The position numbers were made by a program, and so were the translations under genes. From a virus (Duplodnaviria > Heunggongvirae > Uroviricota > Caudoviricetes), in IMG/VR virus record IMGVR_UViG_2671180896_000003, positions 1 to 42,003 of that record: a DNA stretch of 42,003 nt; one strand, 5' to 3'. Positions 1 to 23,976 of this stretch are shown one piece after another (positions within the stretch are counted from its first letter, which is position 1; each line of letters starts with the position of its first letter). A model generated the notes under the pieces. It was not told where the DNA came from, did no database searches, and saw only the letters and a program-made list of their open reading frames with translations.

Positions 1-549
1 TCAGCTAGCTGGAAACTTTTTATACAGAGTTGAGAGCCCTACTCCATACGTTTTTGATACGCTTTGTCGTGATTCACCGGTTGCCATCCGCTCCCCCATT
101 TCCCGCCATTGCTCATCCGTGAACTTAGGCCTGCGACCACCAACTCGCCCTTTTGCCCTGGCTACGGCCAGCCCTGCTAAGGTACGTTCGCTATTAAGAT
201 CAGATTCATATTGTGCTGCGGAAAGGATGTTACGAAAGTTATAGCGGCCGCTGGCTGTTTTGAGATCCACGCCATCAGTAATACTGCGGAAGTTGATACC
301 CTTTTCCTGTAACTGCTGGAACATCAACAGCGCATGCAGAACGTTGCGGCCTATCCTGTCCAGCTTCCAGACCACCAGTTCATCCCCCGGCTGCATAGTG
401 GCGATCAGCCGTTTTAGAACCGGCCGATTCGATTTCCTCCCGCTGGCATGCTCTTCAAAAATTTTCTCACAACCCGCTGACTTGAGCGCCGTTAGTTGCA
501 ATTCAGTGTCCTGGTGGTTTGTTGATACTCGGGCATAACCGTAAATCAT
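1..549 (-). CDS. pin: DNA invertase, serine recombinase of Hin/Gin/Pin family
   Basis: Protein from internal Met MIYGYARVSTNHQDTELQ... is typical resolvase/invertase N-terminus with C-terminal HTH; ATG at 547-549 preceded by AGGAG; stop at 1-3. ORF track extension to 708 has no homology and is probably not translated. Confidence 0.9.
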   Translation of the reverse strand: MIYGYARVSTNHQDTELQLTALKSAGCEKIFEEHASGRKSNRPVLKRLIATMQPGDELVVWKLDRIGRNVLHALLMFQQLQEKGINFRSITDGVDLKTASGRYNFRNILSAAQYESDLNSERTLAGLAVARAKGRVGGRRPKFTDEQWREMGERMATGESRQSVSKTYGVGLSTLYKKFPAS

Positions 550-608
550 GGGATTTCTCCTGTTATGAAAACAGGAGAAACGGCGAAGCATCACCAGATT
601 TTTGATGG

Positions 609-634
609 TTATAAAAAAGGTTGGTTTGGGAGAA
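609..634. repeat. Invertase crossover site (hix/gix-like), copy next to invertase gene
   Basis: TTATAAAAAAGG-TT-GGTTTGGGAGAA: two 12-bp half-sites around a 2-bp core, resembling hix/gix consensus; 14 bp identical in inverted orientation to site at 2548-2573. Confidence 0.7.
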
Positions 635-1075
635 GCGGCAAAACGGAATGTGGGCAACGGGGAAAACCAAATCCCTGATATGTCTTTCTGGACGGTTACT
701 GGTGGCAATGGAAATTTTGTGATTCGTCAACCTGACGGGCTAATCACTCAGATGGTTACTGTAAGTATAAGCGGTCCAGTGGCGATGAATGGAATGACTG
801 ATAATGCTTATGCCATTACAGGTTCTAATAAGTCTTATATTGCCACAGCCACATTGCCCTTTGTATTTCCTAATAAGGTGCTGGGCGTTATCCCTCTGGT
901 ATCAACAACAACCTATGGTGGTGTATCCAGTAATATTACAGGTTCATACGCGACGGCGGTTTGTTCTTTTGCCGCTGTCCGGGGGAATAATACGATTGTA
1001 TTCAAAGTCGACAAACCACTGAATGCAGCCTTTCCTTCAGATACCAGCGTCTCAGCGTTAATCATTGGACGGTAA
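623..1075 (+). CDS. Alternative tail-fibre C-terminal variable domain (silent in this orientation; no own start)
   Basis: Reading frame continues from crossover core (GLGEAAKRNVGNG...); after inversion it fuses in frame to the constant fibre N-terminus. The ATG at 602 in the ORF track is probably incidental. Confidence 0.65.
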   Translation, partial: GLGEAAKRNVGNGENQIPDMSFWTVTGGNGNFVIRQPDGLITQMVTVSISGPVAMNGMTDNAYAITGSNKSYIATATLPFVFPNKVLGVIPLVSTTTYGGVSSNITGSYATAVCSFAAVRGNNTIVFKVDKPLNAAFPSDTSVSALIIGR

Positions 1076-1077
1076 TA

Positions 1078-1521
1078 ATGAACTCAGTATTCTTTTCACC
1101 CGGAAGTAAAAGTTTTTATCTACAAGAATTGTTTCCAGAATATGAGGATGCGGGAACGCTTCCAGATGATATTATTGAAATTACCCGAGAAACATATGAG
1201 CAATTTCTTGGGCTGCATCCAGAAGGGAAAGAAATTGGCGCTGACAGTTCAGGACGGCCAATATGGATTAATTCCCCACCGCCTTCAAAAGAGGATGAGG
1301 TGTTGATGGCTGAAATGAAAAAAATATCTTTGGTTTCAGAAGCCAATACCTACATCAATACCCATCAGTGGCCTGGCAAAGCTGCTATTGGTCGTCTGAA
1401 AGGTAACGAGCTGGAGCAATATAATTTATGGCTGGATTATCTGGACGCACTGGAACTGGTTGATCCCTCCAGTGCTCCAGATATTGAATGGCCTACGCCT
1501 CCGGCAGTTCAGGCCAGATGA
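1078..1521 (+). CDS. Tail fibre assembly protein (chaperone) paired with the alternative fibre domain
   Basis: 147 aa, starts 3 nt after the alternative fibre domain; C-terminal region resembles the other Tfa (shared ...LDYLDA...VD...SAPDIEWP motif); convergent with and overlapping the 1493-2095 gene by 29 bp. Confidence 0.7.
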   Translation: MNSVFFSPGSKSFYLQELFPEYEDAGTLPDDIIEITRETYEQFLGLHPEGKEIGADSSGRPIWINSPPPSKEDEVLMAEMKKISLVSEANTYINTHQWPGKAAIGRLKGNELEQYNLWLDYLDALELVDPSSAPDIEWPTPPAVQAR

Positions 1522-2095
1522 CATTCGGCGCGGTGCTGGTATCTGTTACCGTCACCGCGTCAATGTAATCCAGCACGGCGTTAAGTCGGGTTGTTTCTGC
1601 CTGCGTCAGCTTCCGCCCGGCCTGTAATTTCAGTTGAATCAGACTAATGGAAGCCATTGCAGCATCAATCAGTGACTGGCGCTGTGCTTCTGCCGCGTCT
1701 ACTGCGGCGCTATGCTGTGCCTCAGTATCGGTCACCCATTTCTCACCATCCCATTTATCGTATGGCGTTAATGGGGCGATAGTGGTTGTATTTTCAGGGT
1801 AATCACCCGGAGCGGTGATTTCTTTTGATTCTCCTGTTTTGGTGCTATAGACCGTTTCACCGCGATGGTCTGGCACATATTCCCATGAGTTAAAATCTGC
1901 AGAACGGCAGATTGCATAACCAGCCTTATGTGTGCCAGGGGCATCTAAACAGGAACATGCCGGAATGCCGATACCAACGGTAAGATATTCATTTGAAGTG
2001 GAAATATATTCCCGAGTTTCACCATCATAGCTATAGACGGTAATATTCCCCGCCTTCGTGGCAATAAGCTCGCTATTTAATACAGCGTTATCCAT
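1493..2095 (-). CDS. Tail fibre assembly protein (chaperone), currently expressed orientation
   Basis: 200 aa; start overlaps fibre stop by 1 nt; conserved Tfa C-terminal motif (LNAVLDYIDAV...TSTAPNVIWPELP). Confidence 0.75.
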   Translation of the reverse strand: MDNAVLNSELIATKAGNITVYSYDGETREYISTSNEYLTVGIGIPACSCLDAPGTHKAGYAICRSADFNSWEYVPDHRGETVYSTKTGESKEITAPGDYPENTTTIAPLTPYDKWDGEKWVTDTEAQHSAAVDAAEAQRQSLIDAAMASISLIQLKLQAGRKLTQAETTRLNAVLDYIDAVTVTDTSTAPNVIWPELPEA

Positions 2096-2829
2096 TATGC
2101 AGCCCTCACGATAAAGTTAAATGCAATATTTCGCGCACGTGTTTCCGTTGATGTTCTGGCAACACGTGATGCATCAAAATAATAATTCGCCTGTTTATAT
2201 GTACCACCTGTCGCAATTGATGCGAGATTTGGTGTCAATGTTGAAGAGGTAAATGCGCCGACAGTATTATTATTTGGCCCCGTGGTCATATCCAAAAAGC
2301 TACCTGTAATATTTTGCAGCGTATCGCTCTGAGCACTCAATAACGCTCGCCCACTGTCCACTCCACGCCCATCATCCCAGCCACGAATAAACTCACCACG
2401 TAAATCAGGCAATTTATTTGTCGGGTAAACTTTTGCCAGTTCCGGGTATTCTTCAGCAGAAAAAGCGGCACCATTGCATTTCAGCCAACCTGTTGGCGGA
2501 GTGGCTGAAGGCCACGGAACAGGGACACCAACAGGTAATGCAGAGCCTTCTCCCAAACCAAGGTTTGTGGTAATCGCTGTCGCCAGCTTTGCCACCAGTC
2601 CATCAACGTCACCATCATCGAGCGCGTCCAGTTCGGCGTTCGCGATAAACTGCCCCAGTACAGCCGCCATCGTCGACGGTTGGCGCAGCGCTTTACTGAC
2701 CTGTGCGCTGGATGCTTTACCCGAGGAGAATCCTTTCTTCAGTGCGGTTAGCGTCTCCCATTCCTCCTGCGAGGTAACATTTGCATTAGCATCTGTCGCA
2801 AACGCTTTAAAATCATTAGTTCCAGCCAT
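2095..2829 (-). CDS. Tail fibre protein (constant N-terminus about 90 aa plus invertible C-terminal domain)
   Basis: Follows baseplate genes; start ATG 2827-2829 overlaps upstream stop (TAATG); crossover site in frame at residues TTNLGLGEG; Gly/Ser/Thr-rich fibre-like C-terminus. ORF track start at 2847 is also possible. Confidence 0.75.
   Translation of the reverse strand: MAGTNDFKAFATDANANVTSQEEWETLTALKKGFSSGKASSAQVSKALRQPSTMAAVLGQFIANAELDALDDGDVDGLVAKLATAITTNLGLGEGSALPVGVPVPWPSATPPTGWLKCNGAAFSAEEYPELAKVYPTNKLPDLRGEFIRGWDDGRGVDSGRALLSAQSDTLQNITGSFLDMTTGPNNNTVGAFTSSTLTPNLASIATGGTYKQANYYFDASRVARTSTETRARNIAFNFIVRAA
2548..2573. repeat. Invertase crossover site (hix/gix-like), copy inside tail-fibre gene
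   Basis: TTCTCCCAAACC-AA-GGTTTGTGGTAA; inverted repeat partner of 609-634; lies in frame within tail-fibre ORF at the codons for NLGLGE. Confidence 0.7.
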
Positions 2830-3509
2830 TAAAGTAATCTCCCCCATGCGCCGTCATCAAAACCGGCGATGTATTCGTTATCCATGTCAAATCCAAAGAA
2901 TTTTGTTCCTTCGGACGGTGTTTCGACTGAGGGTGTTTCAACGCCGCCAGCCCATACACCAGCAGCTTTAACGGTGAGATAACCCTGTTTGATAGCGGCT
3001 ATCAGTTCGAGTGACACATCAGAAATATCAGTCTCGGGAAAAACCCAGACCGATATCGTCATGTCCTGGTTATCGACGATCTGCATCTTCAGTCCAGAGC
3101 CTGCGGTAGCAGCGTCAAGGATGGGAGGCAGAGAGTCGTTCCGACCATCCCAGTTGTTGATAGCGATTTTCGCTTTCAGAATGATGCGGTACGTCTCATC
3201 ACTCAGCGTCGTATAGCCAGAATCAGGATCATATGGCCCTTGCCAGATGCCCTGGTCATATCCGAGCCCGTCAGTGTCCCAGCTGAAATAAACGCCGCTA
3301 ATTGGCTGGCTGACTATACGACTACGCCCAATCCACAGGCCGAGGATATCGAGTTGCACGCCAACCGCCGTATCGATATCGAAGGCTGTTACAAGCCCTG
3401 ACATAGTGCTGGACACATCAATCAGCGGGCGGGTGCTCAGATCTATATGGTCAAAAAAGAGTGGCTTGGTAGCATGGTAGTTAGTGATCAGTTCGGTGTA
3501 TTTGCTCAT
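2829..3509 (-). CDS. Phage tail protein (YmfQ/DUF2313-like, gpI position)
   Basis: Protein from MSKYTELITNYHATKPLFFDH...; ATG at 3507-3509 overlaps stop of upstream J-like gene (ATGA); position between baseplate J and tail fibre. Confidence 0.55.
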   Translation of the reverse strand: MSKYTELITNYHATKPLFFDHIDLSTRPLIDVSSTMSGLVTAFDIDTAVGVQLDILGLWIGRSRIVSQPISGVYFSWDTDGLGYDQGIWQGPYDPDSGYTTLSDETYRIILKAKIAINNWDGRNDSLPPILDAATAGSGLKMQIVDNQDMTISVWVFPETDISDVSLELIAAIKQGYLTVKAAGVWAGGVETPSVETPSEGTKFFGFDMDNEYIAGFDDGAWGRLL

Positions 3510-4705
3510 GAGGTCACCGTGATAGTGACGTGACTCGCAACGCATGACGCAGATTCGTCATAAGCAATATCGATATTTCCGCTTGCGACTGAGTCAGAGG
3601 ATTTGCCGATGAGCAGCTCCTGAATGTCGTAATAGCGAGCACTGCCTCCGCTTACCACGCCAAGGTTTGCCGGGGAATAAATACGACTCAGCAGAACGTC
3701 ATCGCCAATTGCCAGGCCATTTATATAATCGGCAACAGCCTGTTTTATCTGCTCGCCGATTTGAGATGTATACCCGGTAAAAACTTTCAGGGTAATGGCT
3801 ACAAAAATTGGCACATCGGTAGAACGCGAAAAACTGATGACGTGAGGATTACCGTAAGTATCCGGCACGGTGACAGAAGTTGTACCGTAAGTTGCGGTTC
3901 CCTGCCCTTTATTCCCCCTGATGGTCTGGGCGATTTCAGTCAGATCGCCGCCATCCACGATGGCAGAGATAGAGTGTGGCGGCAGCCCATTACTGTCGGT
4001 CGTGCCGGTATCATTCTCGTAGAGCTTGTGACGTGTAACCCCTGCAACGTTCACTATCGCGCCGTCCACCCCTTCAAACGGCGTGATGGAGGGTAGCGCG
4101 ACACTCTGCCCCTGCCGGATGCGCAGCTCTGCGTCGGTTTCCGCCGGGGATCCGACGGTGGCCGCCGCGGGGTTAGTTACCGAAGTCCAGCCGCGGGTCG
4201 GTGTGTTAATGGTCGTGACCGTTCCGGACAGCGCGGCCACTGCGCCGCTATTTGAGCAGGTGGCAGTGACCGTCGCCGTCCCGTCTAAACCAATTACCAC
4301 GGAAGCCGGCATGCTCCAGACCAGGCCATTCTTATCCCTGACGGAGCCATTCGAAATGGTCGTACCGGCCGCGCCGGTAAGCAGCAAATCAACCGTTGAG
4401 TTGGTAGCCGTTCTCCTTTTAATACCGTTTATTTTCACGTTCTTGCTCAGCCCTGCGCCATAAGCGGTGGCAGGCGAAAAGCTGTTGTAAACAGCAATGG
4501 CCGTGTTGTTAGCATCGTGAATAGCCAGGGCCACCAGCGCCACCATCTGCCCGTCTTTGCTGTCAGGATCCAGATAAGCATCGCTGCCATATATCTGCTT
4601 AAAGTAGTTGGTCAGGGTGTCCAGTATTGTCTGGTAATCAGGCGCGCTGATCCCCTCAGCGGTTACCGTTGCCGATAAGCCGAGCGTGTCCAAATTGAGG
4701 GCCAT
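3506..4705 (-). CDS. Baseplate J-like protein
   Basis: 399 aa; position and size match baseplate J/Mu gp47 family; directly follows gpW-like gene. Confidence 0.65.
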   Translation of the reverse strand: MALNLDTLGLSATVTAEGISAPDYQTILDTLTNYFKQIYGSDAYLDPDSKDGQMVALVALAIHDANNTAIAVYNSFSPATAYGAGLSKNVKINGIKRRTATNSTVDLLLTGAAGTTISNGSVRDKNGLVWSMPASVVIGLDGTATVTATCSNSGAVAALSGTVTTINTPTRGWTSVTNPAAATVGSPAETDAELRIRQGQSVALPSITPFEGVDGAIVNVAGVTRHKLYENDTGTTDSNGLPPHSISAIVDGGDLTEIAQTIRGNKGQGTATYGTTSVTVPDTYGNPHVISFSRSTDVPIFVAITLKVFTGYTSQIGEQIKQAVADYINGLAIGDDVLLSRIYSPANLGVVSGGSARYYDIQELLIGKSSDSVASGNIDIAYDESASCVASHVTITVTS

Positions 4706-5059
4706 TTATGCCTCGCTGGTAAGGGTGGTTTGTCCGTAGATAGTGTTTATGGTGGCTGTGAACGTTACCCGGCGTGTCGTGCTTTCATTCACGGTATCAA
4801 AGGCCAGTATGGACAGAACGCCAGGTGTGGTGCTGATGCGATCCCTGATCGCAAGGTTATAAACCTCAGGCCTTTGCTTTCCCAGAACCGACTGGATATA
4901 GGGTGTGCCCTCGGTTGTGTCCAGAAACCATTGCCCCTTCCACAGTTCAAAGCGCGTTTTAACGGCCTGGGCCACGCACTCGGGTGAGTTGACCAGAAAG
5001 GTGTCATCGCCCTGGCCGAAGGTGTAGTCCCCGTCGTCGTCTTCGCGTCGGTATCGCAT
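4706..5059 (-). CDS. Baseplate wedge protein (gpW / GP46-like)
   Basis: 117 aa small acidic protein between spike and J-like genes, the typical gpW/gp25 position. Confidence 0.5.
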   Translation of the reverse strand: MRYRREDDDGDYTFGQGDDTFLVNSPECVAQAVKTRFELWKGQWFLDTTEGTPYIQSVLGKQRPEVYNLAIRDRISTTPGVLSILAFDTVNESTTRRVTFTATINTIYGQTTLTSEA

Positions 5060-5061
5060 AA

Positions 5062-5715
5062 TTACCCTCCCAGTGGTTTCGTATTGCTGCCGCCGACTTC
5101 CACGCCGCCATGCGTATGCTTATCAACCATGGAGCCATCCACCAGCTGCAGGCGGCCGTCAGGCAGAATTTTCAGACCGTTAAGGTTGAAGCCTCCCGGC
5201 GCGGTTCCCGTTATCGCTCCGGATGAAGGGTTAAGGCTCAGTTTTGTTCCACCGTCGTCACTGCGCAGTTCAACCGCACTGGTACTGATGCTGCTGATTT
5301 TCTGCGCCTGCGACTGCGGACCCACAATGGCAAACGCATCACTCAGGTCATGCTGGCGCGGGTCAACCGGTTCCTGCACCCCGCCGCTCTGCCACCAGAA
5401 GTCGATGCAGCGATCGGAGAAGACCAGGAGGCACTCGTCACCGGCCTTTACCGGGAAGGTTAACGTGCAGCCACCGCCGCGGGGGAACACCACTGGAACG
5501 TCTGGCAAAATCGGTATCTCCTCAGAAACCAGAGCGCCATCGTCGCTGAGCCGCTGACCGTAGATGGCTGGCTGCACGGTGCATGTCACTGTTTCAGGGT
5601 CAAAGGACTGGATGATCCCCGGCAAAGCCACGCGCAGGCTGCCGAAAATGGCGTGGCGGTGCGCCTCAAGAGTCTGCGATTCGTTGCCGTCCTGCGCGCG
5701 GGCTGATACTGGCAT
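5062..5715 (-). CDS. Baseplate assembly protein V / central spike
   Basis: Protein from MPVSARAQDGNES...; ATG 5713-5715 with GGAGAAA upstream; Gly-rich C-terminus typical of gpV/Mu gp45-like spikes. ORF track start at 5763 would overlap a terminator. Confidence 0.6.
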   Translation of the reverse strand: MPVSARAQDGNESQTLEAHRHAIFGSLRVALPGIIQSFDPETVTCTVQPAIYGQRLSDDGALVSEEIPILPDVPVVFPRGGGCTLTFPVKAGDECLLVFSDRCIDFWWQSGGVQEPVDPRQHDLSDAFAIVGPQSQAQKISSISTSAVELRSDDGGTKLSLNPSSGAITGTAPGGFNLNGLKILPDGRLQLVDGSMVDKHTHGGVEVGGSNTKPLGG

Positions 5716-8625: not shown

Positions 8626-10604
8626 CAGTAGACCCTCGGTTGTAGCTGCTGAGTAAGACGGGAATTAACGCCGGATTGACGATCGGCAACCTCCCGGCCA
8701 GTGGATGCCGGGTCGCTCGCGCCGTAAATATTGATGTTCGTTTCCTGGCTGATCTGCGCGGCTGCCTGCGTAGCGGCAACGCTGGCCAATGGGGAATTCC
8801 ACTGACCGTAACCTTCCTTCCTGGACATGGCCTGCAGAAGGTTGCTGAACTGCTGCGGGTCGCTCAGGTTCAGCGTGTCCTTAGCGCCCACGCCCATCAT
8901 ATTGGCTACGAAGTTCGAATAGGCCTCGGGGTCGTTGTTGTCGCTGGCAGGTGCGTATTTGTGGATGATGTCCCATATTGACTGGAGTTTTTCATACCCG
9001 GCGGCCGCGCTTTTTCCGGTGAAATAAAGACGGATCTGCCTGGCCATTGCCATCCAACCATCAAGCGGCGTCTGATGAGAGGTAAAACCGGTGCCGCCGA
9101 CGGGGCGCAGGTTGCCAGGATTGTTGTTACGGTCGGCCAGCGTCTTGCCCGGGCCGCTCTCCTGCTGGTCTGAGCCGCCCTCTTCTTTGCCGAAAATCCA
9201 CCCGTTTATTGTTTTCCCGATGCTTCGCGGGTCGAACCCCGTCTTGCCCTCTATCCAGTCAGCAGTATTGTTAGCGCTGTCAGATACTGCAGGTAGAGCA
9301 TCCTGGCCTTGCCCTTGTGCCAGCAGGTTCTTGCCGATCGCATAAGCATCTTTCCAACGCCCCTCGTTGATGGCGTTTATCAGGTCGCCAATCATCTTAA
9401 TCATCTTGCCAAACTCACCGAACTGCTTAGTGAGGTTGTCGATGTCGCCTTTAAGGGTCCAGTTTTTGAGGTTGATATTGAGCAGCTTTGCGATTTCAAC
9501 CCCTATCGCCTTCACAGAATCCCGCAGCTCGCCAAGCGATTTCAGGGCAGCCTCTATTTCTGGCTCCCATTTATCCCAGGGCAGCAGGCTTTGACCGCCT
9601 TCTTTCCAGGTTTTGTAGTCGTCGTAAAGCGCGAACAGCGCCGAGCCTAGCGCGATTACGATACCTATCGGCGATTTGAGGAACTCAGCGTTAAGCAGCT
9701 GCCACGCCGAAACCAGCCCGGACACCAGCATGATTAGCTGCTGTATATCCGGCGGCAGCTTTTTAAACCACTCAATCAGGCCGCCTACCGCCTGCGAGAC
9801 GCGCCACGCCATCTGGGTAATGACATCAGCAGCAAAGAGCACCCCCTTCACTATCTTCGTGACCACGCCCTCTATCTTCGGCCAGTTCTCCAGCATCTGC
9901 TTGCTGAGATTGTTCAGCGTGCCGCTCAGGCCGCCGGCCAGATTCGAGCCAACCTTATCGCGCAAGATCCCCAGTAGCGAAACGAAGTTGCGCATTGAGG
10001 TCATGAACTTGTTGGACTGCTGCGCGGCCCTGTCAGCATCGAAGCCTGTCTTCTGCATCATCGACTGGTATTCAGCCGTGAAGCCGGACATTCCTCGCCG
10101 CATTGCCATCAGCGTGTTTTCGTCAATGCCCAGCATCTGCGCGAACTGATTGGCTCGATAATAGGGCATGCTGCTGAGGCGCTGGCCGACGCCGGTGAAG
10201 ATAGCCGACATGTCGCGCATCTGTCCGGAAGCGTCCCGGGTCTGCACCCCCAGGCGGTTCAGGAAGCCTTCGGCGCCGGGATTGCTGCGCATGAAGCGCG
10301 CCAGGCTCTCCAGTGAGTTCTGGGCAGCCTCGGCGCTGGAGCCGGTTTGTGAGGCAGCATAGCCAAGCGCCTTGATGCCGTTGACCGATGCCCCGGTGCG
10401 TTCCGCGGCCCAGTAGAGTTTATCAAGGCCGCTGGCGATCGAGGCGGTGAAGCCCACAATGGCCAGCCCCGTCGACTCAACTATGGCCCCCAGTTTTACG
10501 ACGTTCGCGGCCACACCTTTGAGCGTGGCTTCAAACTTCGCCTGGCCCGCGCCGTCGATATCGAACCCCAGAGAGACCAGGTAATCACGGATAGTATCAG
10601 CCAT
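8625..10604 (-). CDS. Tail tape measure protein
   Basis: 659 aa, Ala/Gly/Gln-rich with predicted helical repeats and hydrophobic central segments; preceded by chaperone gene with frameshift extension. Confidence 0.75.
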   Translation of the reverse strand: MADTIRDYLVSLGFDIDGAGQAKFEATLKGVAANVVKLGAIVESTGLAIVGFTASIASGLDKLYWAAERTGASVNGIKALGYAASQTGSSAEAAQNSLESLARFMRSNPGAEGFLNRLGVQTRDASGQMRDMSAIFTGVGQRLSSMPYYRANQFAQMLGIDENTLMAMRRGMSGFTAEYQSMMQKTGFDADRAAQQSNKFMTSMRNFVSLLGILRDKVGSNLAGGLSGTLNNLSKQMLENWPKIEGVVTKIVKGVLFAADVITQMAWRVSQAVGGLIEWFKKLPPDIQQLIMLVSGLVSAWQLLNAEFLKSPIGIVIALGSALFALYDDYKTWKEGGQSLLPWDKWEPEIEAALKSLGELRDSVKAIGVEIAKLLNINLKNWTLKGDIDNLTKQFGEFGKMIKMIGDLINAINEGRWKDAYAIGKNLLAQGQGQDALPAVSDSANNTADWIEGKTGFDPRSIGKTINGWIFGKEEGGSDQQESGPGKTLADRNNNPGNLRPVGGTGFTSHQTPLDGWMAMARQIRLYFTGKSAAAGYEKLQSIWDIIHKYAPASDNNDPEAYSNFVANMMGVGAKDTLNLSDPQQFSNLLQAMSRKEGYGQWNSPLASVAATQAAAQISQETNINIYGASDPASTGREVADRQSGVNSRLTQQLQPRVY

Positions 10605-10836
10605 TGTTCTGGGCTCTCCATTTGGCTACGCGCGCGTCGTTATCGTCACGCATATCGAGGTAATCGTTAAGCAGCGCGATGCGGCACAGGTCCACTGCAC
10701 CGCTGTCGAGGTCTTTCTGATCGAGGTTGAAGGCGAGCGCCGGGCGAAGGATGTAATCCTCACCGCCCGGCAGGGTGTTAAAGGTTATTCCGCAGGCTGG
10801 GTGTTCGTCTCGCTGGTAGGAAGTCCTTGCAAAAAA
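10598..10836 (-). CDS. -1 frameshift extension of tail assembly chaperone (gpGT-type fusion product)
   Basis: Slippery heptamer T_TTT_TTG at 10830-10836 (minus strand) in register 17 codons before chaperone stop; -1 frame stays open for about 78 codons to a TGA at 10598-10600, 5 nt past the tape-measure ATG. Confidence 0.55.
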
Positions 10837-11210
10837 TTTCCCAGCGAATCGGCGACCACCCGCGCCACAAGCTGCAGCATCACGAACAGGTCGATATCGT
10901 CAAAGGCCATGGTGCCCTGCTGGCACACCGGCACCCAGGCGCTCAAGTGTTTGCGCGCCACCACCTGCAGGCAGGGAAAAAGGATCGCATTCACATCATC
11001 ATCACTGAGGCCGGAAACGGCGCCAGCGATCTTCGGAAGAATACTTTCCATCGCGCCTTCGGTGTCTTTGGCATTCAGCTTCGTCTGGATGTTACGGAAG
11101 TCAGAAACCAGACCCGCCAGAACCGGCAGCAGCTTGCGGGATACCTTCAGCTGTTCGAAAACGCTTAACTTAGCGATACGGTACTGCTGATCCTTGATAG
11201 TAATTTCCAT
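10785..11210 (-). CDS. Tail assembly chaperone (gpG / Mu gp41-like)
   Basis: 141 aa, acidic; between tail tube and tape measure; carries the frameshift site. Confidence 0.7.
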   Translation of the reverse strand: MEITIKDQQYRIAKLSVFEQLKVSRKLLPVLAGLVSDFRNIQTKLNAKDTEGAMESILPKIAGAVSGLSDDDVNAILFPCLQVVARKHLSAWVPVCQQGTMAFDDIDLFVMLQLVARVVADSLGNFLQGLPTSETNTQPAE

Positions 11211-11213
11211 GAA

Positions 11214-11654
11214 TTAATACTCCCCCAGGAACGGGTCAATTTTGATGCAGTCGAACACCCAGGCCACCGTCCCGCCCTCTTTGGCGTTCTGCCAGTCGGG
11301 GTGCTTCTGGAAGGCGCCGCCGCGCGCGGTCATGATGTCGCCAGATGCAGTGTTGCGGAACACAAAGACGTTATTACCCCACAGCGCTGAGGACTGGCTT
11401 TGCGCGTTGTAGGCCAGAGACAGCTTTTTGTTCACCGGCGAGGTTTTCAGAAGGTTAACGGTTACCGTTCCAGCCTTGCCGGCGTGCAGGGAGTGCATGC
11501 CCTCGCCGTCAGCGCCGATCGTCATGGTGTTTTTGTTTTCGACCATGGCGATGGTAATGCCCTCTTCGGAGTTGGCAGAACCGGCGCCGAGGTCAATCAC
11601 CCCGGTGGGGCCAGTCATTGACCCCGTGATATCCAGAAAAGAATAAGTGCTCAT
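11214..11654 (-). CDS. Tail tube protein
   Basis: 146 aa directly downstream of sheath gene; size and position match contractile-tail tube proteins. Confidence 0.7.
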   Translation of the reverse strand: MSTYSFLDITGSMTGPTGVIDLGAGSANSEEGITIAMVENKNTMTIGADGEGMHSLHAGKAGTVTVNLLKTSPVNKKLSLAYNAQSQSSALWGNNVFVFRNTASGDIMTARGGAFQKHPDWQNAKEGGTVAWVFDCIKIDPFLGEY

Positions 11655-11665
11655 TCAGTGCCCCC

Positions 11666-13156
11666 TTAGCGCACCACGTCGATTAATACATCAGCGAAGT
11701 GGATAGCCCCCGCCAGTTTGGTTGCTACCTGAATCACCGGCGCCTTACGCGCTTCACGATCTGCCTGCGCCTGGGCGTTGAGCGGGTTCGCGTAAACGTA
11801 ATAGCCTTTGGTCAGCATATCGCCTGATGTCAGCTGTCCGACGTCACCGCCGTTCCAGATTCCCGGTGCCACCAGACCGTTGTTTACAGACTGGTCCATC
11901 GACTGTTCGACATTGGTCACCAGGCGCGTCACGCCCGCTTCGGTCTGCGGGATTTTGGTGGTTGAGGTGTAAAGCAGGTTCCAGAGGTTGTTCTGGACGT
12001 AATTCTGCAGCCAGTCGAGGCCGTGGCGCTCGTCGAAGAAATCGCCGTTGGACATCACGCCTTCCTGGATGATGGCGGTATCGTTGGCGTAGCGCACAAA
12101 TACGTTGCAGTTTTTTGCCTTGAGCGTATCGGCCTGCTGCGCGGTGATCGTCTCGGCAGTAATGCCCGGTTCCTGCTTGAATTTCAGGGTAATGGTGGTG
12201 TTGTTACCCAGGAAATTTACTGTGAACGCGCGACCAAAGGCAGAGGCTGCGGCATAAGGCACCTGGCTGTACTGGCAGAACGTGCGGCCATAACCGGCGG
12301 CTTTCAGCCTGTAGGCAATATCCGTGGTGCTGGTTGAGTCCAGGACCTCGGCCGCCGCAGTCGTCACACCGTACACCCGGGAATCGCTCGCAGAGCCGAT
12401 CAGGGCAGAAACATCGATATGGTCCTGGTCCGTCATTGCAGTATCGGCGATAACCAGGCCGTACCAGTCGGCTGAGTAGTTCAGCGCTGTGTTCACCGAC
12501 GGCAGCACTGAAGATGAAGCATCCTGGCCGTTTGACACGGTTGGGTTATGCGCTGAGTCAATGCCCAGCAGCGGCGCCAGGTCAGTGCCAGTGCCGGCAG
12601 CAACAGGAATACCAATTGCTGAGGTGGCCCCGGTAGTGGAAGACGTCACCACAAACTGATTCGAGCCGGCCACGTAGGAAACGGCGGTGCCGGTAAGTTT
12701 CGCAGTGATGGCCGTCGCTACTCCGGCCAGATCGGTCACCGCTGACAGGTCGATACCCGTTACGGTTTTAACAGTGCCGTCCACCGAGATCTTAATCGCG
12801 CCATCGTCAACCGCGGTGAAGTTTGCGATTGCCTGCTCTGCAGAGGTCAGTACAGCACCAGTGAGCTTGCCGGCCGTTGCCGGGCTGGAGGCGCGTTCCA
12901 GTTTTCCGATATAAAGATCGCGGGGCTGCGGCGACTGCTGGAAGTAAAGGTTTGCCGCCTTGTACTCTTCAGCGGTAGTGCCAAAGTCGGTGGCGACACT
13001 TTCGATATCCTGGTAAAGGCGCATCACTTCCGGGGCAGTGATTACGTCGGCGGTGCCGAGAACCAGCAGCGCGCCGAAGTTACGCCCGGCCGCCGCGCGA
13101 ACGGCGAGCGCGACCTGCACGCGAACGACGCGTGATACAGATAAGCCGTTAGGCAT
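11666..13156 (-). CDS. Tail sheath protein
   Basis: 496 aa; position upstream of tube gene; size typical of sheath proteins. Confidence 0.7.
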
Positions 13157-13159
13157 GAT

Positions 13160-13702
13160 TTAATCTCCGAAAAATTGTACTGGAGCAGAGAGGATGGATT
13201 TGATGCCGTACTCGCGTACCGTTTTGCGGCGTAGCGTCACAGACAGGTCGTAGCGACGCTGCCACTGGTTGTTAACGAGCTCGGGCGCCGGGATGATTCG
13301 GCCCACCTCGCCGAGCGTGAGGCCGACGCGATTTAGCTCAGCGTTGTTCTGGGACACGAACAGACCGTTACGAAACGTTTTGGCGTAAGCCTGGCCTGCA
13401 GGGCCGTAGAAACAGCAGAGCACCACCAGCGATTCGAATTGCCACTGGTAGTCGGTGTCGTCGTCCCTGGTGACCGATGCCGGGTTGGCTGTGTCCTGGA
13501 AGTCTGTGATACCAAACCCGCACCAGTTGGTGCCCAGCACCGGGATCGCTGGCTGAGGGTCAGTAAAGCGTGGTATGGCCATGCCATCCAGCAGGCCAGA
13601 AACACCGCGAATCCACCGGCTGAGCTCGCGCTCAAGCGCCTGGTCGTACTGCGGCGGCTGGCTGGTAGGCGTCAGGTATCCGGGATGTGTGGTGTCATTC
13701 AA
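13160..13702 (-). CDS. Hypothetical phage structural protein (neck/tail-completion region)
   Basis: ORF open to 13783, but a TTG at 13700-13702 preceded by GGAGG avoids an 89-nt overlap with the upstream gene; start uncertain. Confidence 0.45.
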   Translation of the reverse strand: MNDTTHPGYLTPTSQPPQYDQALERELSRWIRGVSGLLDGMAIPRFTDPQPAIPVLGTNWCGFGITDFQDTANPASVTRDDDTDYQWQFESLVVLCCFYGPAGQAYAKTFRNGLFVSQNNAELNRVGLTLGEVGRIIPAPELVNNQWQRRYDLSVTLRRKTVREYGIKSILSAPVQFFGD

Positions 13703-21831: not shown

Positions 21832-22539
21832 TTATTGTTGGGCTGTCTGCTTTCCCTCGCGCAGCTTATCCATGTGCGCTGCCCACGCTTCAGGCGGGCA
21901 GTTCGACGGCGTGACGATGCAGACCTTTCCGTAACTCAGGCCAGCCAGATCGACATTCACTTCCGTTTTGTTGCTCATGTCGATGCCGGTGAGCTGCGCG
22001 GCGTTTTTGATGTTCGGGGCTACCTGCCCAAACTTCTCAGCGTCCAGCGCGGCTTTCGCCGATTTGTAGGAGAGTTCAGCCAGGTCTTTCGCGTCGAATG
22101 ATACGAGCAGAGCGGCATCCTGACGCAGCTCTCTGATGCGCCTGCGCACATCCGGGCGTTTGAAAAGTATCGATGCCTGGGAATCAGCGCGTGAAGGCGA
22201 ATAGCCCGCGCATATCGCCGCATCTTTCTGCGGCATGCCCCGCGCGATGTTCTGCGCAAACTGCTCATGCTGTGGTTTAAGGATGCCTGCGTTTTCCTGC
22301 GCAGTATCGCCCTCAACTGGCGTAGAGGCTTCAACCACTACTACATGCGGCATCTGGCTTTGCGCAGTTTTGCGCACATCCTTTTGCGCAGTTTTTTGCG
22401 CAGCAGGCTTTTTGATGTACCTGCGCGCAGATGTATAATTCAGTCCCTGCGCTTCGCACCATTCTTTCGGCGATATACCTGTTTTGGCATGCTCGGCGAG
22501 GAACCGTCTTTGGAGGCTTCCCCAGTCCGGTTTTGCCAT
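21832..22539 (-). CDS. Terminase small subunit
   Basis: 235 aa; N-terminal HTH-like segment ([21 protein letters not shown]) and motif AAICAGYSP typical of small terminase subunits. Confidence 0.7.
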
Positions 22540-22675
22540 AAAACTCTCTGGAATATTCCAATAAACGAGGCGATAGTAACCATTGAAAATGACGAAGTAT
22601 TAGCGGCAAAAATTATTTTGCTTCTATACAAGTGTCATGTTTCAACCCTAAGAACTTTGATGCAAAGGAACGACT

Positions 22676-22936
22676 ATGTCAGATGTAGAAAAAAGAATTG
22701 CCCATCTTGAGGATTTGGTTGAAGAGTTACAGTTACACAGCCACGCTTCTCGTGTTGCTATTGCTGTATTATCAACGGCTTTAAACGGAGTTGTGGGGAA
22801 AGAAACTCACCTCGGAGATGTTTATTTAGAAGGGGTTTCTAAGGCCGACCCCATCGAATTCGACATTCCCGCTAAAGATGGATACCTAGAAAAATTAAAC
22901 GAGAGAGTCGCTGCTCTACTAGGCAGAGCACAATAA
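22676..22936 (+). CDS. Hypothetical protein (moron in the bor position, antisense to late operon)
   Basis: 86 aa; RBS AAGGAA 6 nt upstream of ATG; no signal peptide; predicted helical N-terminus; hairpins downstream. Confidence 0.55.
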   Translation: MSDVEKRIAHLEDLVEELQLHSHASRVAIAVLSTALNGVVGKETHLGDVYLEGVSKADPIEFDIPAKDGYLEKLNERVAALLGRAQ

Positions 22937-23027
22937 GCATTTTTCAAAATCATTTTTCTTAAGCCTTTTACGCATCCCCTCCGGGGGATGTAGCCATAAA
23001 GATGAGTTTGTCCATAGCGTTGACACT

Positions 23028-23050
23028 AAAAAACCGCCCGTAGGCGGTTT
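23028..23050 (-). terminator. Intrinsic terminator, bidirectional but stronger in minus orientation
   Basis: AACCGCC-CGTA-GGCGGTT hairpin flanked by AAAAAA upstream and TTTG downstream on plus strand (TTTTTT after hairpin on minus). Confidence 0.6.
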
Positions 23051-23435
23051 GTAGGTGAAAGGAAGGCCAAGCTAATGCGAATTACTACAAGGTTCAGTTA
23101 TCCCTAATGACGCGACGGACATTTCGGGGCCAAACCAAGCAGCGTCACCTGAGCCCCTTGGCTTTTCATGAATTGACCCAACAGCGTGACCTGAAAGGCG
23201 GGAGACTCCAACGTCCCAGACGCGGGTGGTAAAAATCTCAAGATGGTCATCCATCTCGGAATTCTCCCTTCGCACTATCCTCTCGATTTCTGTTACCCCT
23301 GGCTCAGGAACCCTGACGTCACGATCAACGGTTGCTTAAGGGGAAGTCCAAAAACTGGGTCAAAAAGACCTCCTTGAACTTTCCGTGGGTTAACATTTTT
23401 TATGATAGCGAAACGGGTAACTTTCGCAAATATTG

Positions 23436-23699
23436 TTATTTAAAATGAGATGTGCGTGAAAGCTCAACCTTCCATATATCAGCCTTATCCCGATTGCATT
23501 GCCCCAGCGCCGATAGCAGACTGACATTCAGATCCAGACTGTCCCCGTAGGTCAGCGGCTCGGGAATGGCAGGCTGTGGTGTTTCAGCTGTCAGGTTCGC
23601 CGGCAGGGGCACCACCGGCGCCTGCACGTAAACTGTCCGCGTATTCCCGCAGCCGGTTAGCAGCTGCAGCAGGCACAGGCCGACGAGCGCAATCATCAT
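23436..23699 (-). CDS. o-spanin (Rz1-like outer-membrane lipoprotein)
   Basis: From MMIALVGLCLLQLLTGC: lipobox LTGC; Pro-rich mature part; starts inside i-spanin gene in another frame and extends beyond it (overlapped architecture). Confidence 0.7.
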   Translation of the reverse strand: MMIALVGLCLLQLLTGCGNTRTVYVQAPVVPLPANLTAETPQPAIPEPLTYGDSLDLNVSLLSALGQCNRDKADIWKVELSRTSHFK

Positions 23700-23976
23700 C
23701 CGCAACAGCCACTTTGATATCTGCCTGGGCTCTCTGTGACTCCAGTGCGATCTTGTTCTTTGCATTCTGGTTCGCCTCTGAAATGGCGTTGATGATACTC
23801 ACGGCCCGAATCACGTTCGCGGTGACAGCATTCGCGGTCTCAGCCTGCTGTTCTGCGCTATCGGCCCGCTCCTTTTCGCTACTGGCTTTGTCGCTGTAAT
23901 ACCATGCCGACCAGCACGCCCCGCCGAACAGGCAAAGGAGGAATATGGCAATCGCAATGATGTGACGAGCTTTCAT
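23584..23976 (-). CDS. i-spanin (Rz-like)
   Basis: 130 aa; N-terminal transmembrane segment IIAIAIFLLCLFGGACWSAWYY then periplasmic coiled coil; start overlaps endolysin stop. Confidence 0.75.
   Translation of the reverse strand: MKARHIIAIAIFLLCLFGGACWSAWYYSDKASSEKERADSAEQQAETANAVTANVIRAVSIINAISEANQNAKNKIALESQRAQADIKVAVADDDCARRPVPAAAANRLREYADSLRAGAGGAPAGEPDS

What the first reader, a model, noticed from the sequence alone, without database searches (positions are those of the whole stretch)
22540..23052. Opposite-strand 86-aa gene between lysis cassette and terminase (the lambda bor slot), with flanking hairpins
ORF 22676-22936 has a good RBS and lies antisense to late transcription, between o-spanin and terS. 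It is followed by two hairpins (22973-22990 and the terminator at 23028-23050). It has no signal peptide or lipobox, so it is not Bor-like, and its function is unknown. The adjacent 23053-23435 interval is non-coding and could hold the packaging site.
Basis: partly seen in the sequence, partly recalled or inferred. Interest (0 to 1): 0.45.

Follow-up and report, generated by a model that had tools for sequence, protein, structure and literature searches.

The report
Orphan gene beside undescribed structured prophage RNA
The flagged 86-codon gene is a real but ordinary orphan prophage gene, whereas the neighbouring "non-coding spacer" is a conserved gene of about 367 nt for an elaborately folded RNA that matches no catalogued RNA family and is not a DNA-packaging site.

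Summary
The window is an E. coli Rac-like lambdoid prophage with its late genes on the minus strand. ORF 22676-22936(+) is a real gene (dN/dS 0.09-0.17) from a family of about 21 representatives, all 80-104 aa. It is helical and acidic, has no signal peptide or TM segment, and matches no known family or fold. In three phage lineages it lies head-to-head with unrelated terS genes. It is an ordinary orphan accessory gene.

The main result lies next door. Positions ~23394->23028(-) form an RNA gene of about 367 nt. It has a conserved sigma-70 promoter (TTGCGA-16/17-TATCAT), and the "terminator" at 23028-23050 is its own, with the U-run on the minus strand. I found about 25 homologues in prophages of Escherichia, Citrobacter, Serratia, Pseudescherichia and Rahnella. 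They always lie after the lysis cassette and next to at least six unrelated terminase types, including lambda Nu1. This refutes the cos/pac idea.

Covariation supports an ornate fold: 95% of cells pair and 35 pairs carry compensatory changes. The fold includes a 6-bp loop-loop kissing interaction seen in seven co-varying sequence versions. There is no Rfam match, no coding signal and no literature match. Its function is unknown. My best guess is a lysogen-expressed, moron-like structured RNA.

The parts
22676..22936 (+). 86-aa protein gene. The product is acidic (pI 5.0) and all-helical. It belongs to an orphan family (phrog_16546).
   Evidence: ORF list. PHROG hit at E = 5e-36. 21 family representatives. 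dN/dS 0.17 and 0.09. AF2 pLDDT 80 with three helices. No Pfam, NCBIfam, PADLOC, PDB or BFVD match.
22664..22669 (+). Shine-Dalgarno-like AAAGGA, 6 nt before the ATG of the ORF.
   Evidence: Read directly from the sequence.
22973..22990 (+). Stable 8-bp hairpin (CAUCCCC-UCCG-GGGGAUG) 3' of the ORF, with no U-run. It is probably a 3'-end or stabiliser structure of the ORF transcript.
   Evidence: Fold at -15.6 kcal/mol, z = -3.4. Not called a terminator.
23028..23394 (-). Structured non-coding RNA gene of about 367 nt. Its 5' end (inferred from the -10 box, +/-2 nt) begins GUUAACCCACGG. Its 3' end lies in the U-run after the terminator.
   Evidence: nhmmer footprint 23396-23027. Alignments A2, A3 and A6. 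Covariation counts. No Rfam hit. No coding signal.
23424..23429 (-). -35 hexamer TTGCGA of the RNA promoter.
   Evidence: Consensus scan. TTGnnn is kept at fixed spacing in nearly all of the 23 homologues examined, amid otherwise variable sequence.
23402..23407 (-). -10 hexamer TATCAT of the RNA promoter.
   Evidence: TAnnAT is conserved in nearly all homologues examined, 6-8 nt before the conserved RNA 5' end.
23341..23384 (-). P2: a long, nearly invariant hairpin. It holds AAGGAGGU and a 12-codon UUG mini-ORF of doubtful significance.
   Evidence: 98% of cells paired, little variation. Mini-ORF analysis.
23309..23333 (-). Hairpin A. Its 6-nt loop CGUGAC (23323-23318) is one partner of the kissing interaction.
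23176..23199 (-). Hairpin B. Its 6-nt loop GUCACG (23190-23185) is the other partner of the kissing interaction.
   Evidence: 5 of the 6 loop-loop pairs carry compensatory changes, and 99% of cells pair. Seven loop versions, each with an exact complement.
23148..23308 (-). Central domain closed by P4 (23308-23301 with 23155-23148). It contains P5, P5a (capped by a GNRA tetraloop in most homologues), P5b, hairpin B and conserved purine-rich junctions.
   Evidence: GNRA loops GCGA, GUGA, GCAA and GUAA are read from alignment A6.
23090..23137 (-). P6: a hypervariable hairpin in which all 8 stem pairs show compensatory changes.
   Evidence: helix 12: 8 of 8 pairs changed on both sides.
23057..23075 (-). 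3' segment that pairs back into the body in three places. UUAG (23075-23072) pairs with the 5' end (P1). CUUGGC (23071-23066) pairs with GCCAAG at 23162-23157. UCCUUUC (23063-23057) pairs with GAGAGGA at 23284-23278. The last two are pseudoknots relative to P4.
   Evidence: helix 11: 100% paired. The Rahnella copy has GCUAAG/CUUAGC. The junction-tail helix is 92.5% paired with 3 compensatory pairs.
23028..23050 (-). Intrinsic terminator of the RNA gene: 8-bp GC-rich stem, UACG loop and U6 run. Read on the plus strand it could also stop the convergent ORF transcript, but only weakly.
   Evidence: It is conserved with the RNA in about 20 loci and has one compensatory variant (CUCC/GGAG in L044).

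Best explanation
The flagged stretch holds two independent, convergently transcribed accessory units. They sit in the variable slot between the lysis cassette and the terminase genes of a Rac-like lambdoid prophage of E. coli.

(1) ORF 22676-22936(+) encodes a genuine 86-aa cytoplasmic, helical, acidic protein. It belongs to a small orphan family that repeatedly sits head-to-head with terS. It is transcribed against the late operon and so behaves like a moron. I infer only that it acts through protein-protein contacts in the lysogen. No specific activity can be assigned.

(2) The 'non-coding' interval is a gene on the minus strand (about 23394->23028) for a non-coding RNA of about 367 nt. It has its own near-consensus sigma-70 promoter and its own intrinsic terminator, which is the 23028-23050 hairpin.

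Shown: the RNA is conserved as a self-contained module in about 25 prophages of at least five genera of Enterobacterales. Its helices are maintained by compensatory changes. Two 6-nt hairpin loops 130 nt apart are always exactly complementary (seven versions). The 3' tail pairs back into the core.

Inferred: the RNA is made constitutively in the lysogen, and also as part of the Q-antiterminated late transcript. It folds into a compact body locked by the loop-loop contact and the pseudoknots. It acts as a structured RNA, for example as a scaffold or decoy for a protein or ligand, or possibly as a self-associating particle. It is unlikely to act as a base-pairing sRNA, an mRNA or a DNA site. Its target and its benefit to phage or host are unknown.
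For: Gene order and strands.

ORF is a real gene:
- PHROG match at E = 5e-36.
- Homologues of 59-69% identity and identical length.
- 21 representatives in 1.8e9 clusters.
- dN/dS 0.17 and 0.09.
- The same head-to-head position next to three unrelated terS genes.

ORF and RNA are independent:
- The RNA is absent from all other ORF-bearing loci.
- The ORF is absent from all other RNA-bearing loci.

RNA module:
- 78% identity to E. coli strain 53 inside an otherwise unrelated prophage, with nothing annotated there.
- 19 or more IMG/VR contigs.
- Serratia, Citrobacter and Pseudescherichia genomes.
- Metagenome contigs.
- A Rahnella megaplasmid prophage.

Promoter: TTGnnn-16/17-TAnnAT is kept in nearly all of the homologues examined while the flanks vary.

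Terminator: the U-run is on the minus strand and the hairpin is conserved with the module.

Structure:
- On A2, 97.6% of cells pair, 20 pairs are compensatory, and 0 of 500 shuffles reach this.
- On A6, 95.4% of cells pair against 31-50% for slid controls, 35 pairs are compensatory, and 0 of 500 shuffles reach this.
- The kissing helix is the top covarying helix in an unbiased scan. It has 5 of 6 compensatory pairs and seven versions.

Not coding. Not a known RNA. Not found in the literature by sequence string or keywords.
Against: - No expression data exist. The promoter, the 5' end and the 3' end are inferred from sequence alone.
- The MFE z-score of the single window sequence is only -1.97. 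The case for structure therefore rests on covariation, and many of the sequences are closely related.
- Pairing of the 5' end (P1) is not convincingly maintained in the most divergent homologues L043-L045.
- A 12-codon mini-ORF behind a perfect AAGGAGGU is open in every homologue, so a small translated element cannot be excluded.
- The constant position and sense orientation within the late operon would also fit a cis-acting role.
- Nothing found here points to a molecular target, so the functional part of the statement is inference.
- For the ORF, no convincing sigma-70 promoter was detected upstream. The AF2 model is only moderately confident.
Confidence: 0.8

Rival explanations
1. The interval 23053-23435 is the DNA packaging recognition site (cos or pac) of the phage. 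The conserved sequence would then be a terminase-binding DNA element.
For: It lies upstream of terS in the direction of late transcription, where lambda has cos. It is non-coding.
Against: The same element occurs next to at least six unrelated small terminases: Terminase_2, lambda Nu1, DUF2280, Sf6-type, DUF1441 and unclassified ones. The large terminases also differ. One to five variable genes often lie in between. The sequence changes are compensatory between distant segments, including two hairpin loops, which is an RNA signature. The element carries a conserved promoter and terminator. In P22/Sf6-type headful phages the pac site lies inside terS (established knowledge). Here terS contains four TTGCGCA repeats at 22360-22402.
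Confidence: 0.03
2. The RNA is a cis-acting part of the late transcript and not a free-standing gene. It would be a structured leader or inter-cistronic element. It could control read-through, processing or stability at the boundary between the lysis genes and the morphogenesis genes. Possible modes are riboswitch/attenuator-like, HK022 put-like, or a sib-like RNase III retroregulator.
For: The position is invariant, after the last lysis gene or lysis-associated gene. The orientation is always the same as the late operon. A large conserved fold is followed directly by an intrinsic terminator, as in riboswitches. The 3' tail just before the terminator docks into the core. The long, nearly perfect P2 helix could be an RNase III substrate (inference).
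Against: A sigma-70 promoter is conserved immediately upstream in nearly all of the homologues examined. This is unnecessary for an element that is read through from pR'. What lies downstream is not conserved, and in the window it is a convergent gene on the other strand. I found no covarying anti-terminator alternative: the L044 terminator variant CUCC/GGAG has no matching change upstream (by inspection). These phages have Q antiterminators, whose modified polymerase ignores intrinsic terminators (established lambda biology).
Confidence: 0.15
3. The complementary loops pair between molecules, not within one. The RNA would then assemble into dimers or rings. The loop versions would act as specificity types.
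For: Covariation cannot distinguish intramolecular from intermolecular pairing. The loop pair changes much faster than its surroundings: L010 and L011 are 96.7% identical outside the loops, yet differ at 4 of the 12 loop positions. The two main versions recur across deep branches. This is what selection for specificity would give. The gene lies next to the packaging genes. Phage-borne large RNAs are known to form homo-oligomers (PMC12286853, seen).
Against: Both loops are in one molecule on adjacent helices, because hairpin A abuts P4, which encloses hairpin B. An intramolecular contact is therefore kinetically favoured. The RNA travels with at least six unrelated terminase and portal sets, and most lambdoid phages lack it. 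A structural role in the packaging motor is therefore unlikely. There is no match to the Rfam pRNA, ROOL or GOLLD models.
Confidence: 0.1
4. The element is an mRNA. Its product would be the 12-aa peptide MTQFLDFPLSNR, which follows a perfect Shine-Dalgarno sequence, or the ORF of about 50 aa starting at the AUG in P5a. This could make it a small toxin or type I TA-like locus.
For: AAGGAGGU followed by UUG and an open 12-codon frame ending at the same stop position occur in all 21 aligned homologues. UGA becomes UAA in L026. An ORF of 46-67 aa recurs in many homologues.
Against: The longer ORF is not conserved. Its end varies from 20 to more than 85 codons, it is lost in the divergent homologues, and variable columns are spread 20/19/16 over codon positions. 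In the mini-ORF most substitutions are first-position and non-synonymous, and they are explained by pairing partners in P2 and hairpin A. Its SD and start codon are buried in the P2 stem. No hydrophobic toxin-like peptide is encoded. Coding would not explain 250 nt of covarying structure downstream.
Confidence: 0.05
5. ORF 22676-22936 is a chance open frame and not a gene.
For: It is short, has no known domain, and no clear promoter was found by the consensus scan.
Against: Homologues down to about 30% identity keep the length (80-89 aa) and the motifs. dN/dS is 0.09-0.17. The position is conserved in three phage lineages. A PHROG family exists.
Confidence: 0.02

Closest known systems
Lambda bor and other 'morons' (independently transcribed accessory genes inserted in the late operon of lambdoid phages)
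   Same: Both units occupy the same slot, between Rz/Rz1 and the terminase genes. The ORF is on the opposite strand, like bor. The RNA unit has the classic moron anatomy: its own sigma-70 promoter, one gene and its own intrinsic terminator.
   Different: The ORF product has no signal peptide, no lipobox and no Bor domain. The second unit encodes a large structured RNA and not a protein. Expression in the lysogen has not been tested.
phi29 packaging RNA (pRNA)
   Same: A phage-encoded structured RNA with two loops that are mutually complementary and co-vary between related phages. The gene lies near the packaging genes.
   Different: There is no sequence or model similarity: no Rfam hit of any kind. 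It is about 367 nt against about 120-174 nt, and the loop pairing is 6 bp against 4 bp. It is found in lambdoid phages with conventional terS/terL of many types, and most of their relatives lack it. Whether the loops pair in cis or in trans is unknown.
GOLLD / ROOL / OLE-type large 'ornate' bacterial and phage RNAs
   Same: It is a large non-coding RNA with many covarying helices, pseudoknots, a GNRA tetraloop and a loop-loop contact. It is carried by prophages and its function is unknown (PMC12286853 listed).
   Different: It is unrelated in sequence and model, with no Rfam match. It is smaller (about 370 nt against 580-800 nt). It occurs in Enterobacterales, not in Firmicutes or environmental lineages. 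It has a fixed location after the lysis cassette and a clearly defined promoter and terminator.
HK022 put RNAs and riboswitch-type leaders (cis-acting structured RNAs followed by terminators)
   Same: A structured RNA in a lambdoid phage lies directly downstream of a promoter and upstream of a terminator. The 3' tail next to the terminator takes part in the fold.
   Different: put elements are two stem-loops of about 70 nt with no terminator of their own. Here the downstream genes are not conserved and may be on the other strand. No alternative anti-terminator pairing is supported.
Small phage immunity or regulatory RNAs (P1/P7 c4, P4 CI, P22 sar, lambda oop, prophage sRNAs such as DicF and IpeX)
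   Same: They are prophage-encoded, independently transcribed non-coding RNAs that end in intrinsic terminators.
   Different: Those RNAs are 60-170 nt and act through exposed antisense or seed sequences. Here almost every conserved segment, including the 3' tail, is engaged in intramolecular pairing. There is no c4 or other Rfam match.

Membership tests
Lambda Bor lipoprotein family | N-terminal signal peptide with a lipobox cysteine | tested here: not met
   The N-terminus MSDVEKRIAHLEDLVEEL is acidic. The protein has no Cys at all, and the highest 19-residue hydropathy mean is 1.15.
Lambda Bor lipoprotein family | Sequence match to the Bor domain (Pfam) | tested here: not met
   Pfam returns only sub-threshold coiled-coil noise: SlyX at 16.9 bits against a cut-off of 30.
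Moron (autonomous accessory transcription unit in a late operon): the RNA unit | Own promoter and own factor-independent terminator flanking a single gene inserted between late genes | tested here: met
   TTGCGA-16-TATCAT and a GC-rich hairpin with a U6 run are conserved with the module in about 20-24 homologues. This is sequence evidence only.
Moron: the RNA unit and the ORF | Expression from the repressed prophage | not testable with these tools
   No transcriptome data are available for any carrier strain.
Moron: the 86-aa ORF | Own promoter and terminator | tested here: inconclusive
   No sigma-70 consensus hit lies in 22540-22675. The window and L038 share a conserved TTTCAACCCTAAGAA motif about 30 nt upstream of the start codon. 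L038 has a clean terminator of its own, whereas the window has a hairpin without a U-run plus the shared reverse terminator.
cos/pac packaging site | The sequence co-varies with, and is specific to, one terminase family | tested here: not met
   The element lies next to Terminase_2, Nu1, DUF2280, Sf6-type, DUF1441 and unclassified terS genes.
cos/pac packaging site | Virion DNA ends or a packaging-series start map to the site | not testable with these tools
   This needs virion DNA sequencing.
Any Rfam 15 family (including pRNA, ROOL, GOLLD, c4, CsrB, RNase P, tmRNA, riboswitches) | Covariance-model score at or above the gathering threshold | tested here: not met
   There are no hits at gathering threshold in the window or in 7 homologous loci. 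There is nothing within the RNA at E <= 10 or E <= 1. ARAGORN finds no tRNA or tmRNA.
phi29-type pRNA | Two mutually complementary loops that co-vary | tested here: met
   Seven loop versions, and 5 of 6 pairs are compensatory.
phi29-type pRNA | Intermolecular (ring-forming) loop pairing, and association with a phi29-like portal and gp16 ATPase | tested here: not met
   The associated packaging genes are ordinary terS/terL/portal genes of several families. Oligomerisation itself cannot be tested here.
Hfq-type base-pairing sRNA | Intrinsic terminator with a U-tail plus an accessible conserved seed | tested here: inconclusive
   The terminator and U6 run are present. However, the conserved 3' tail CCUUUC and the CUUGGC segment are predicted to pair inside the molecule. 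Protein binding has not been tested.
Type I toxin-antitoxin (hok/sok-like) locus | A conserved small hydrophobic toxin ORF within a highly structured mRNA | tested here: not met
   No conserved ORF other than the hydrophilic 12-codon frame, and no Sok or other Rfam hit.
SlyX (PF04102): the 86-aa ORF | Pfam score at or above the gathering cut-off (30 bits) | tested here: not met
   16.9 bits. Only 4 of 21 family members give any hit.

The most novel reading that the evidence does not exclude
The RNA of about 367 nt may be the founding member of a new functional class. It would be a prophage-encoded, protein-independent structured RNA whose fast-switching complementary loop pair acts as a specificity code. 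The code could direct self-assembly into RNA-only particles, or type-specific recognition between the lysogen's RNA and the identical element in the late transcript of an induced or superinfecting phage. The consequence could be exclusion, control of late gene expression, or a new catalytic or ligand-sensing activity.
Probability: 0.2. Interest if true: 0.9.

Novelty: new variant of a known kind. Interest (0 to 1): 0.66.

Why it matters
E. coli and its lambdoid prophages are the most intensively annotated genetic systems known. Even so, this RNA gene of about 370 nt is left blank by RefSeq/PGAP in every carrier genome examined, is absent from Rfam 15, and was not found in the searchable literature.

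Its anatomy is unusually clear for a computational find. It has a promoter, a terminator, more than ten covarying helices, pseudoknots, a GNRA cap and a six-base-pair kissing contact with seven natural "alleles". It sits in genetically tractable hosts, and one carrier, NCTC11023, is a culture-collection strain.

Questions about what large ornate phage RNAs do therefore become directly testable by deletion, mutate-and-rescue and cryo-EM.

There is also a practical annotation lesson. The gap between the lysis and terminase genes should not be assumed to be cos/pac. The 86-aa ORF adds one more conserved orphan to the moron slot, and on its own it is of modest interest.

Tried and rejected
- **Known RNA family.** Rfam was searched at gathering and at permissive E-values, on the window and on twelve homologous loci. 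ARAGORN was also run. Nothing was found.
- **GenBank phage collection.** Searched in near and distant modes. There was no match, so no cultured phage in that set carries either unit.
- **Protein function of the ORF.** I tried Pfam, PHROGs, NCBIfam, PADLOC and a PDB profile search. I made AF2 models with 4 sequences (pLDDT 58, unusable) and with 21 sequences (pLDDT 80). I ran Foldseek against PDB and BFVD. Only generic coiled-coil noise came back. The third fold search was not used, because a three-helix model returns only generic hits.
- **Coding potential of the RNA region.** Rejected.
- **Hok/Sok-like type I TA.** This idea was prompted by a literature hit. It was rejected because there is no toxin ORF and no Sok match.
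- **CsrB-like sponge.** GGA motifs are only mildly enriched, and the one hairpin-loop GGGAUA lies in the non-conserved P6 (by inspection). Not pursued.
- **Anti-terminator alternative involving CCCGCC and the terminator 3' arm.** There is no covariation with the L044 terminator variant. Rejected.
- **Pairing of the 5' end with the GGGGUAACAG junction instead of P1.** The registers are inconsistent among divergent homologues. Left unresolved.
- **ORF and RNA as a functional pair.** Rejected, because each occurs without the other.
- **ncALC220 of Yersinia entomophaga (PMC10101115).** This is a different AT-rich element upstream of holA and is unrelated.
- **L027, L028, L030 and L032.** These were chance 19-20-mer hits.
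- **Full-length covariance model.** Not attempted.
Full report
**Setting**

The window matches 17 of 5,426 complete E. coli genomes at 99.8% identity or more. Its right-hand 32 kb is a Rac-like lambdoid prophage. It carries RecE/RecT, a Q antiterminator, RusA, a class II holin, a lysozyme, Rz/Rz1, terS, a PBSX-type terL, a portal and head and tail genes. All late genes are on the minus strand. The finding covers the gap between Rz1/LysC (23436-23765, -) and terS (21832-22539, -).

**Checking the observation**

- ORF 22676-22936(+) exists. It has AAAGGA six nt before its ATG and is annotated by RefSeq as a hypothetical protein.
- Both hairpins fold as described: 22973-22990 at -15.6 kcal/mol (z = -3.4), and 23031-23050 at about -14.5 kcal/mol (z about -3.5).
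- The protein has no signal peptide, no cysteine and no TM segment. The highest Kyte-Doolittle mean is 1.15 and the pI is 5.0.

The literal observation is therefore confirmed, with one correction. The U-run of the 23028-23050 terminator is on the minus strand.

**The 86-aa ORF**

It is a real gene.
- It matches phrog_16546 end to end (E = 5e-36).
- A word-indexed search of 5.8e9 proteins gave only five hits, two of them full-length at 69% and 59% identity.
- An exhaustive profile search of 1.8e9 cluster representatives found 21 members. All but two truncated or mis-started ones are 80-104 aa. They share the motifs LxLxLHAxRVAIT.LS and GY.EKL..V..LL.
- dN/dS against the two closest homologues is 0.17 and 0.09.
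- In Pantoea-type loci (L034-L037) and in a second metagenomic lineage (L038-L041), the homologue again lies on the strand opposite the late genes. It is immediately upstream of, and divergent from, terS. The three terS genes are unrelated.

No function could be attached. Pfam, NCBIfam, PADLOC and a PDB profile search gave only sub-threshold coiled-coil noise. An AF2 model built on the 21-sequence alignment (pLDDT 80) shows one long helix (residues 3-40) and two short helices. It has no significant Foldseek match in PDB or BFVD. I read it as an ordinary orphan accessory ("moron-slot") gene.

**The "non-coding" interval is a conserved module**

A megablast of 22400-23600 against E. coli genomes returned three further genomes in which only positions 23060-23416 match, at 78% identity. 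The match lies in an unannotated gap of a prophage whose lysis genes and terminase are different.

Exact-word scans with conserved 19-22-mers then recovered the element in many other places:
- about 21 IMG/VR contigs;
- Serratia, Citrobacter and Pseudescherichia genomes;
- three metagenome contigs;
- a prophage on a Rahnella aceris megaplasmid, found by blastn.

nhmmer confirmed full-length homology, with scores of 220-447 bits, and exposed four chance word hits. None of 50,697 GenBank phage records has the element.

**Anatomy of the module**

All copies align from a GC-rich hairpin with a U-run to the motif GUUAACCCACGG. Just beyond this motif the sequence becomes variable, except for TTGnnn, a 16-17 nt spacer and TAnnAT. 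In the window these are TTGCGA at 23429-23424 and TATCAT at 23407-23402, on the minus strand. The -10 box sits 6-8 nt before the conserved block. This pattern is kept in nearly all of the 23 homologues examined, including the most divergent.

The unit is therefore promoter, then about 367 nt, then an intrinsic terminator. It reads on the minus strand from about 23394 to about 23028.

**Structure of the RNA**

RNAalifold predicted 82 pairs, 15 of them with compensatory changes. An unbiased scan of all column pairs ranked one long-range helix first, in both the 17-sequence and the 20-sequence alignments. It joins the 6-nt loop of one hairpin (CGUGAC, 23323-23318) to the 6-nt loop of another hairpin 130 nt downstream (GUCACG, 23190-23185).

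Across the family the two loops occur as CGUGAC/GUCACG, CUCGAC/GUCGAG, CGUUAU/AUAACG, GGCGAC/GUCGCC, CAUAAC/GUUAUG, CGCUAC/GUAGCG and CUAGAC/GUCUAG. They are always exact complements.

For the full model of 97 pairs, including this kissing helix and one pseudoknot:
- 97.6% of cells pair on A2, and 95.4% on the more diverse A6.
- Partners slid by 1-3 columns give only 31-50% pairing.
- 20 pairs (A2) and 35 pairs (A6) carry changes on both sides.
- No shuffle out of 500 reaches the observed value on any measure.

Further features:
- A hypervariable hairpin, P6, has 8 of 8 compensatory pairs.
- P5a is capped by a GNRA tetraloop (GCGA, GUGA, GCAA or GUAA) in most members.
- The 3' segment pairs back three times. 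UUAG pairs with the 5' end. CUUGGC pairs with GCCAAG at 23162-23157 (100% paired; it becomes GCUAAG/CUUAGC in Rahnella). UCCUUUC pairs with the purine-rich junction at 23284-23278 (92.5% paired, three compensatory pairs).

The single-sequence MFE z-score is only -1.97, so the argument rests on comparative data. Pairing of the extreme 5' end is unclear in L043-L045.

**It is not coding**

The recurrent ORF of 46-67 aa has no conserved end and is lost in divergent members. Its variable columns show no codon periodicity (20/19/16).

A 12-codon frame (UUG after AAGGAGGU, peptide MTQFLDFPLSNR) is open in all members. However, its substitutions are mostly first-position changes with pairing partners, and its SD and start codon are buried in the P2 stem. 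I regard it as probably fortuitous, but it is not excluded.

**It is not a packaging site**

In 18 or more loci the module sits just downstream of the spanin genes. In two loci a few small genes intervene. These spanins and endolysins fall into at least three unrelated protein clusters each. Downstream lie 0-5 variable genes and then a terminase. The small terminase subunits belong to Terminase_2, lambda Nu1 (a cos phage), DUF2280, the Sf6 type, DUF1441 or no family. A terminase recognition site cannot be shared by all of these, and DNA sites do not show loop-loop compensatory changes.

The module also does not travel with the 86-aa ORF. The ORF is unique to the window phage among RNA-bearing loci, and the RNA is absent from all other ORF-bearing loci.

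**Is it known?**

No Rfam 15 model matches, in the window or in twelve homologous loci, even at E <= 10 or E <= 1. ARAGORN finds nothing. RefSeq leaves the region blank. Searching full texts for six characteristic 15-16-mers, and four keyword searches, gave nothing relevant. These searches do not cover subscription journals.

**How it probably works**

Shown: the RNA is an autonomous promoter-RNA-terminator module with a compact, pseudoknotted, kissing-loop-locked fold, and it moves horizontally among lambdoid prophages of Enterobacterales.

Inferred:
- The promoter is near-consensus sigma-70 and has no obvious operator. The RNA should therefore be made in the lysogen, like a moron, and again within the Q-antiterminated late transcript.
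- Almost every conserved segment is engaged in intramolecular pairing. It is therefore more likely to work as a shaped RNA, such as a protein or ligand binder, a decoy, a scaffold, possibly a catalyst or a self-assembling particle, than as an antisense regulator.
- The loop pair evolves about ten times faster than its surroundings. L010 and L011 are 96.7% identical elsewhere but differ at 4 of the 12 loop positions. The two main versions recur on deep branches. This hints that the loop sequence is a specificity determinant, which keeps an intermolecular (pRNA- or ROOL-like) reading alive.

The main rival is a cis-acting role at the lysis/morphogenesis boundary. It is favoured by the fixed position and sense orientation. 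It is disfavoured by the conserved private promoter, the non-conserved and sometimes antisense downstream genes, and the presence of Q.

**Verdict**

- The ORF finding as written is correct but ordinary.
- The cos/pac suggestion is refuted.
- The real interest of the locus is a previously unannotated structured RNA family, which is apparently undescribed.

I score overall interest at 0.66. I class it as a new variant of a known kind: the moron architecture, and phage-borne ornate RNAs. I give a 20% chance that it represents something functionally new in kind.

Noticed in passing
window 22360-22402 (inside terS, 21832-22539 minus strand): Four direct copies of TTGCGCA lie within 43 bp, spaced 10-14 bp apart. 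The whole 42-kb window has only 16 copies on both strands. They encode a repetitive AQKTAQK linker in terS.
   Followed up: partly
L002 7990-8341 (E. coli strain 53, NZ_CP048359.1; also strains 205 and OZ121084): This copy of the RNA element looks decayed or recombinant. Its two kissing loops do not match (CGUGAC with GUCGAG), P4 has two mismatches, the CCUUUC tail is changed, and the terminator is missing.
   Followed up: partly
L003, L005, L011, L016, L017: about 5-40 nt beyond the RNA terminator (aligned with window 22995-23025): Several homologues have a second, long, nearly perfect hairpin (for example CAUUACGAUGGG-GCUA-CCCAUGGUAAUG) just after the U-run. The window has only a weak remnant. 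It may be a tandem terminator or a module boundary.
   Followed up: no
window 22640-22655 and L038 about 30-45 nt upstream of the ORF homologue: The window and the 69%-identical homologue share the motif TTTCAACCCTAAGAA upstream of the 86-aa ORF, although the rest of the intergenic region differs. It could be a promoter or an operator of this gene family.
   Followed up: no
window 9530-11561: A small serine recombinase gene (9530-10078, -) lies next to oppositely oriented tail-fibre and tail-fibre-assembly genes (10134-10987 + and 10959-11561 -). This looks like a Pin/Cin/Gin-type invertible host-range segment. The adjacent tail genes include pseudogenes (12942-13334), so the prophage may be defective.
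   Followed up: no
window 1-5276: The end of a second prophage remnant of Qin/Rac type is present. It carries ydfC, dicB, a DUF1482 gene, a 2.5-kb exonuclease gene, an excisionase and an integrase. Host genes ompW to yciI separate it from the main prophage.
   Followed up: no
L035 2861-3372 (also L036, L037; Pantoea-type prophages carrying the ORF homologue): An unannotated gap of about 510 bp occupies the same relative position, between the post-lysis small genes, as the RNA module does in the window. It has no similarity to the RNA module and no Rfam hit.
   Followed up: partly
L044 and L045, 0.5-3.3 kb downstream of the RNA: In two divergent carriers the RNA is followed by a conserved trio: a DUF2560-like small gene, a large glycosyltransferase-like gene (485-683 aa) and a 200-aa gene. 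These come before an HNH or terminase region. This is unusual cargo for the slot.
   Followed up: no
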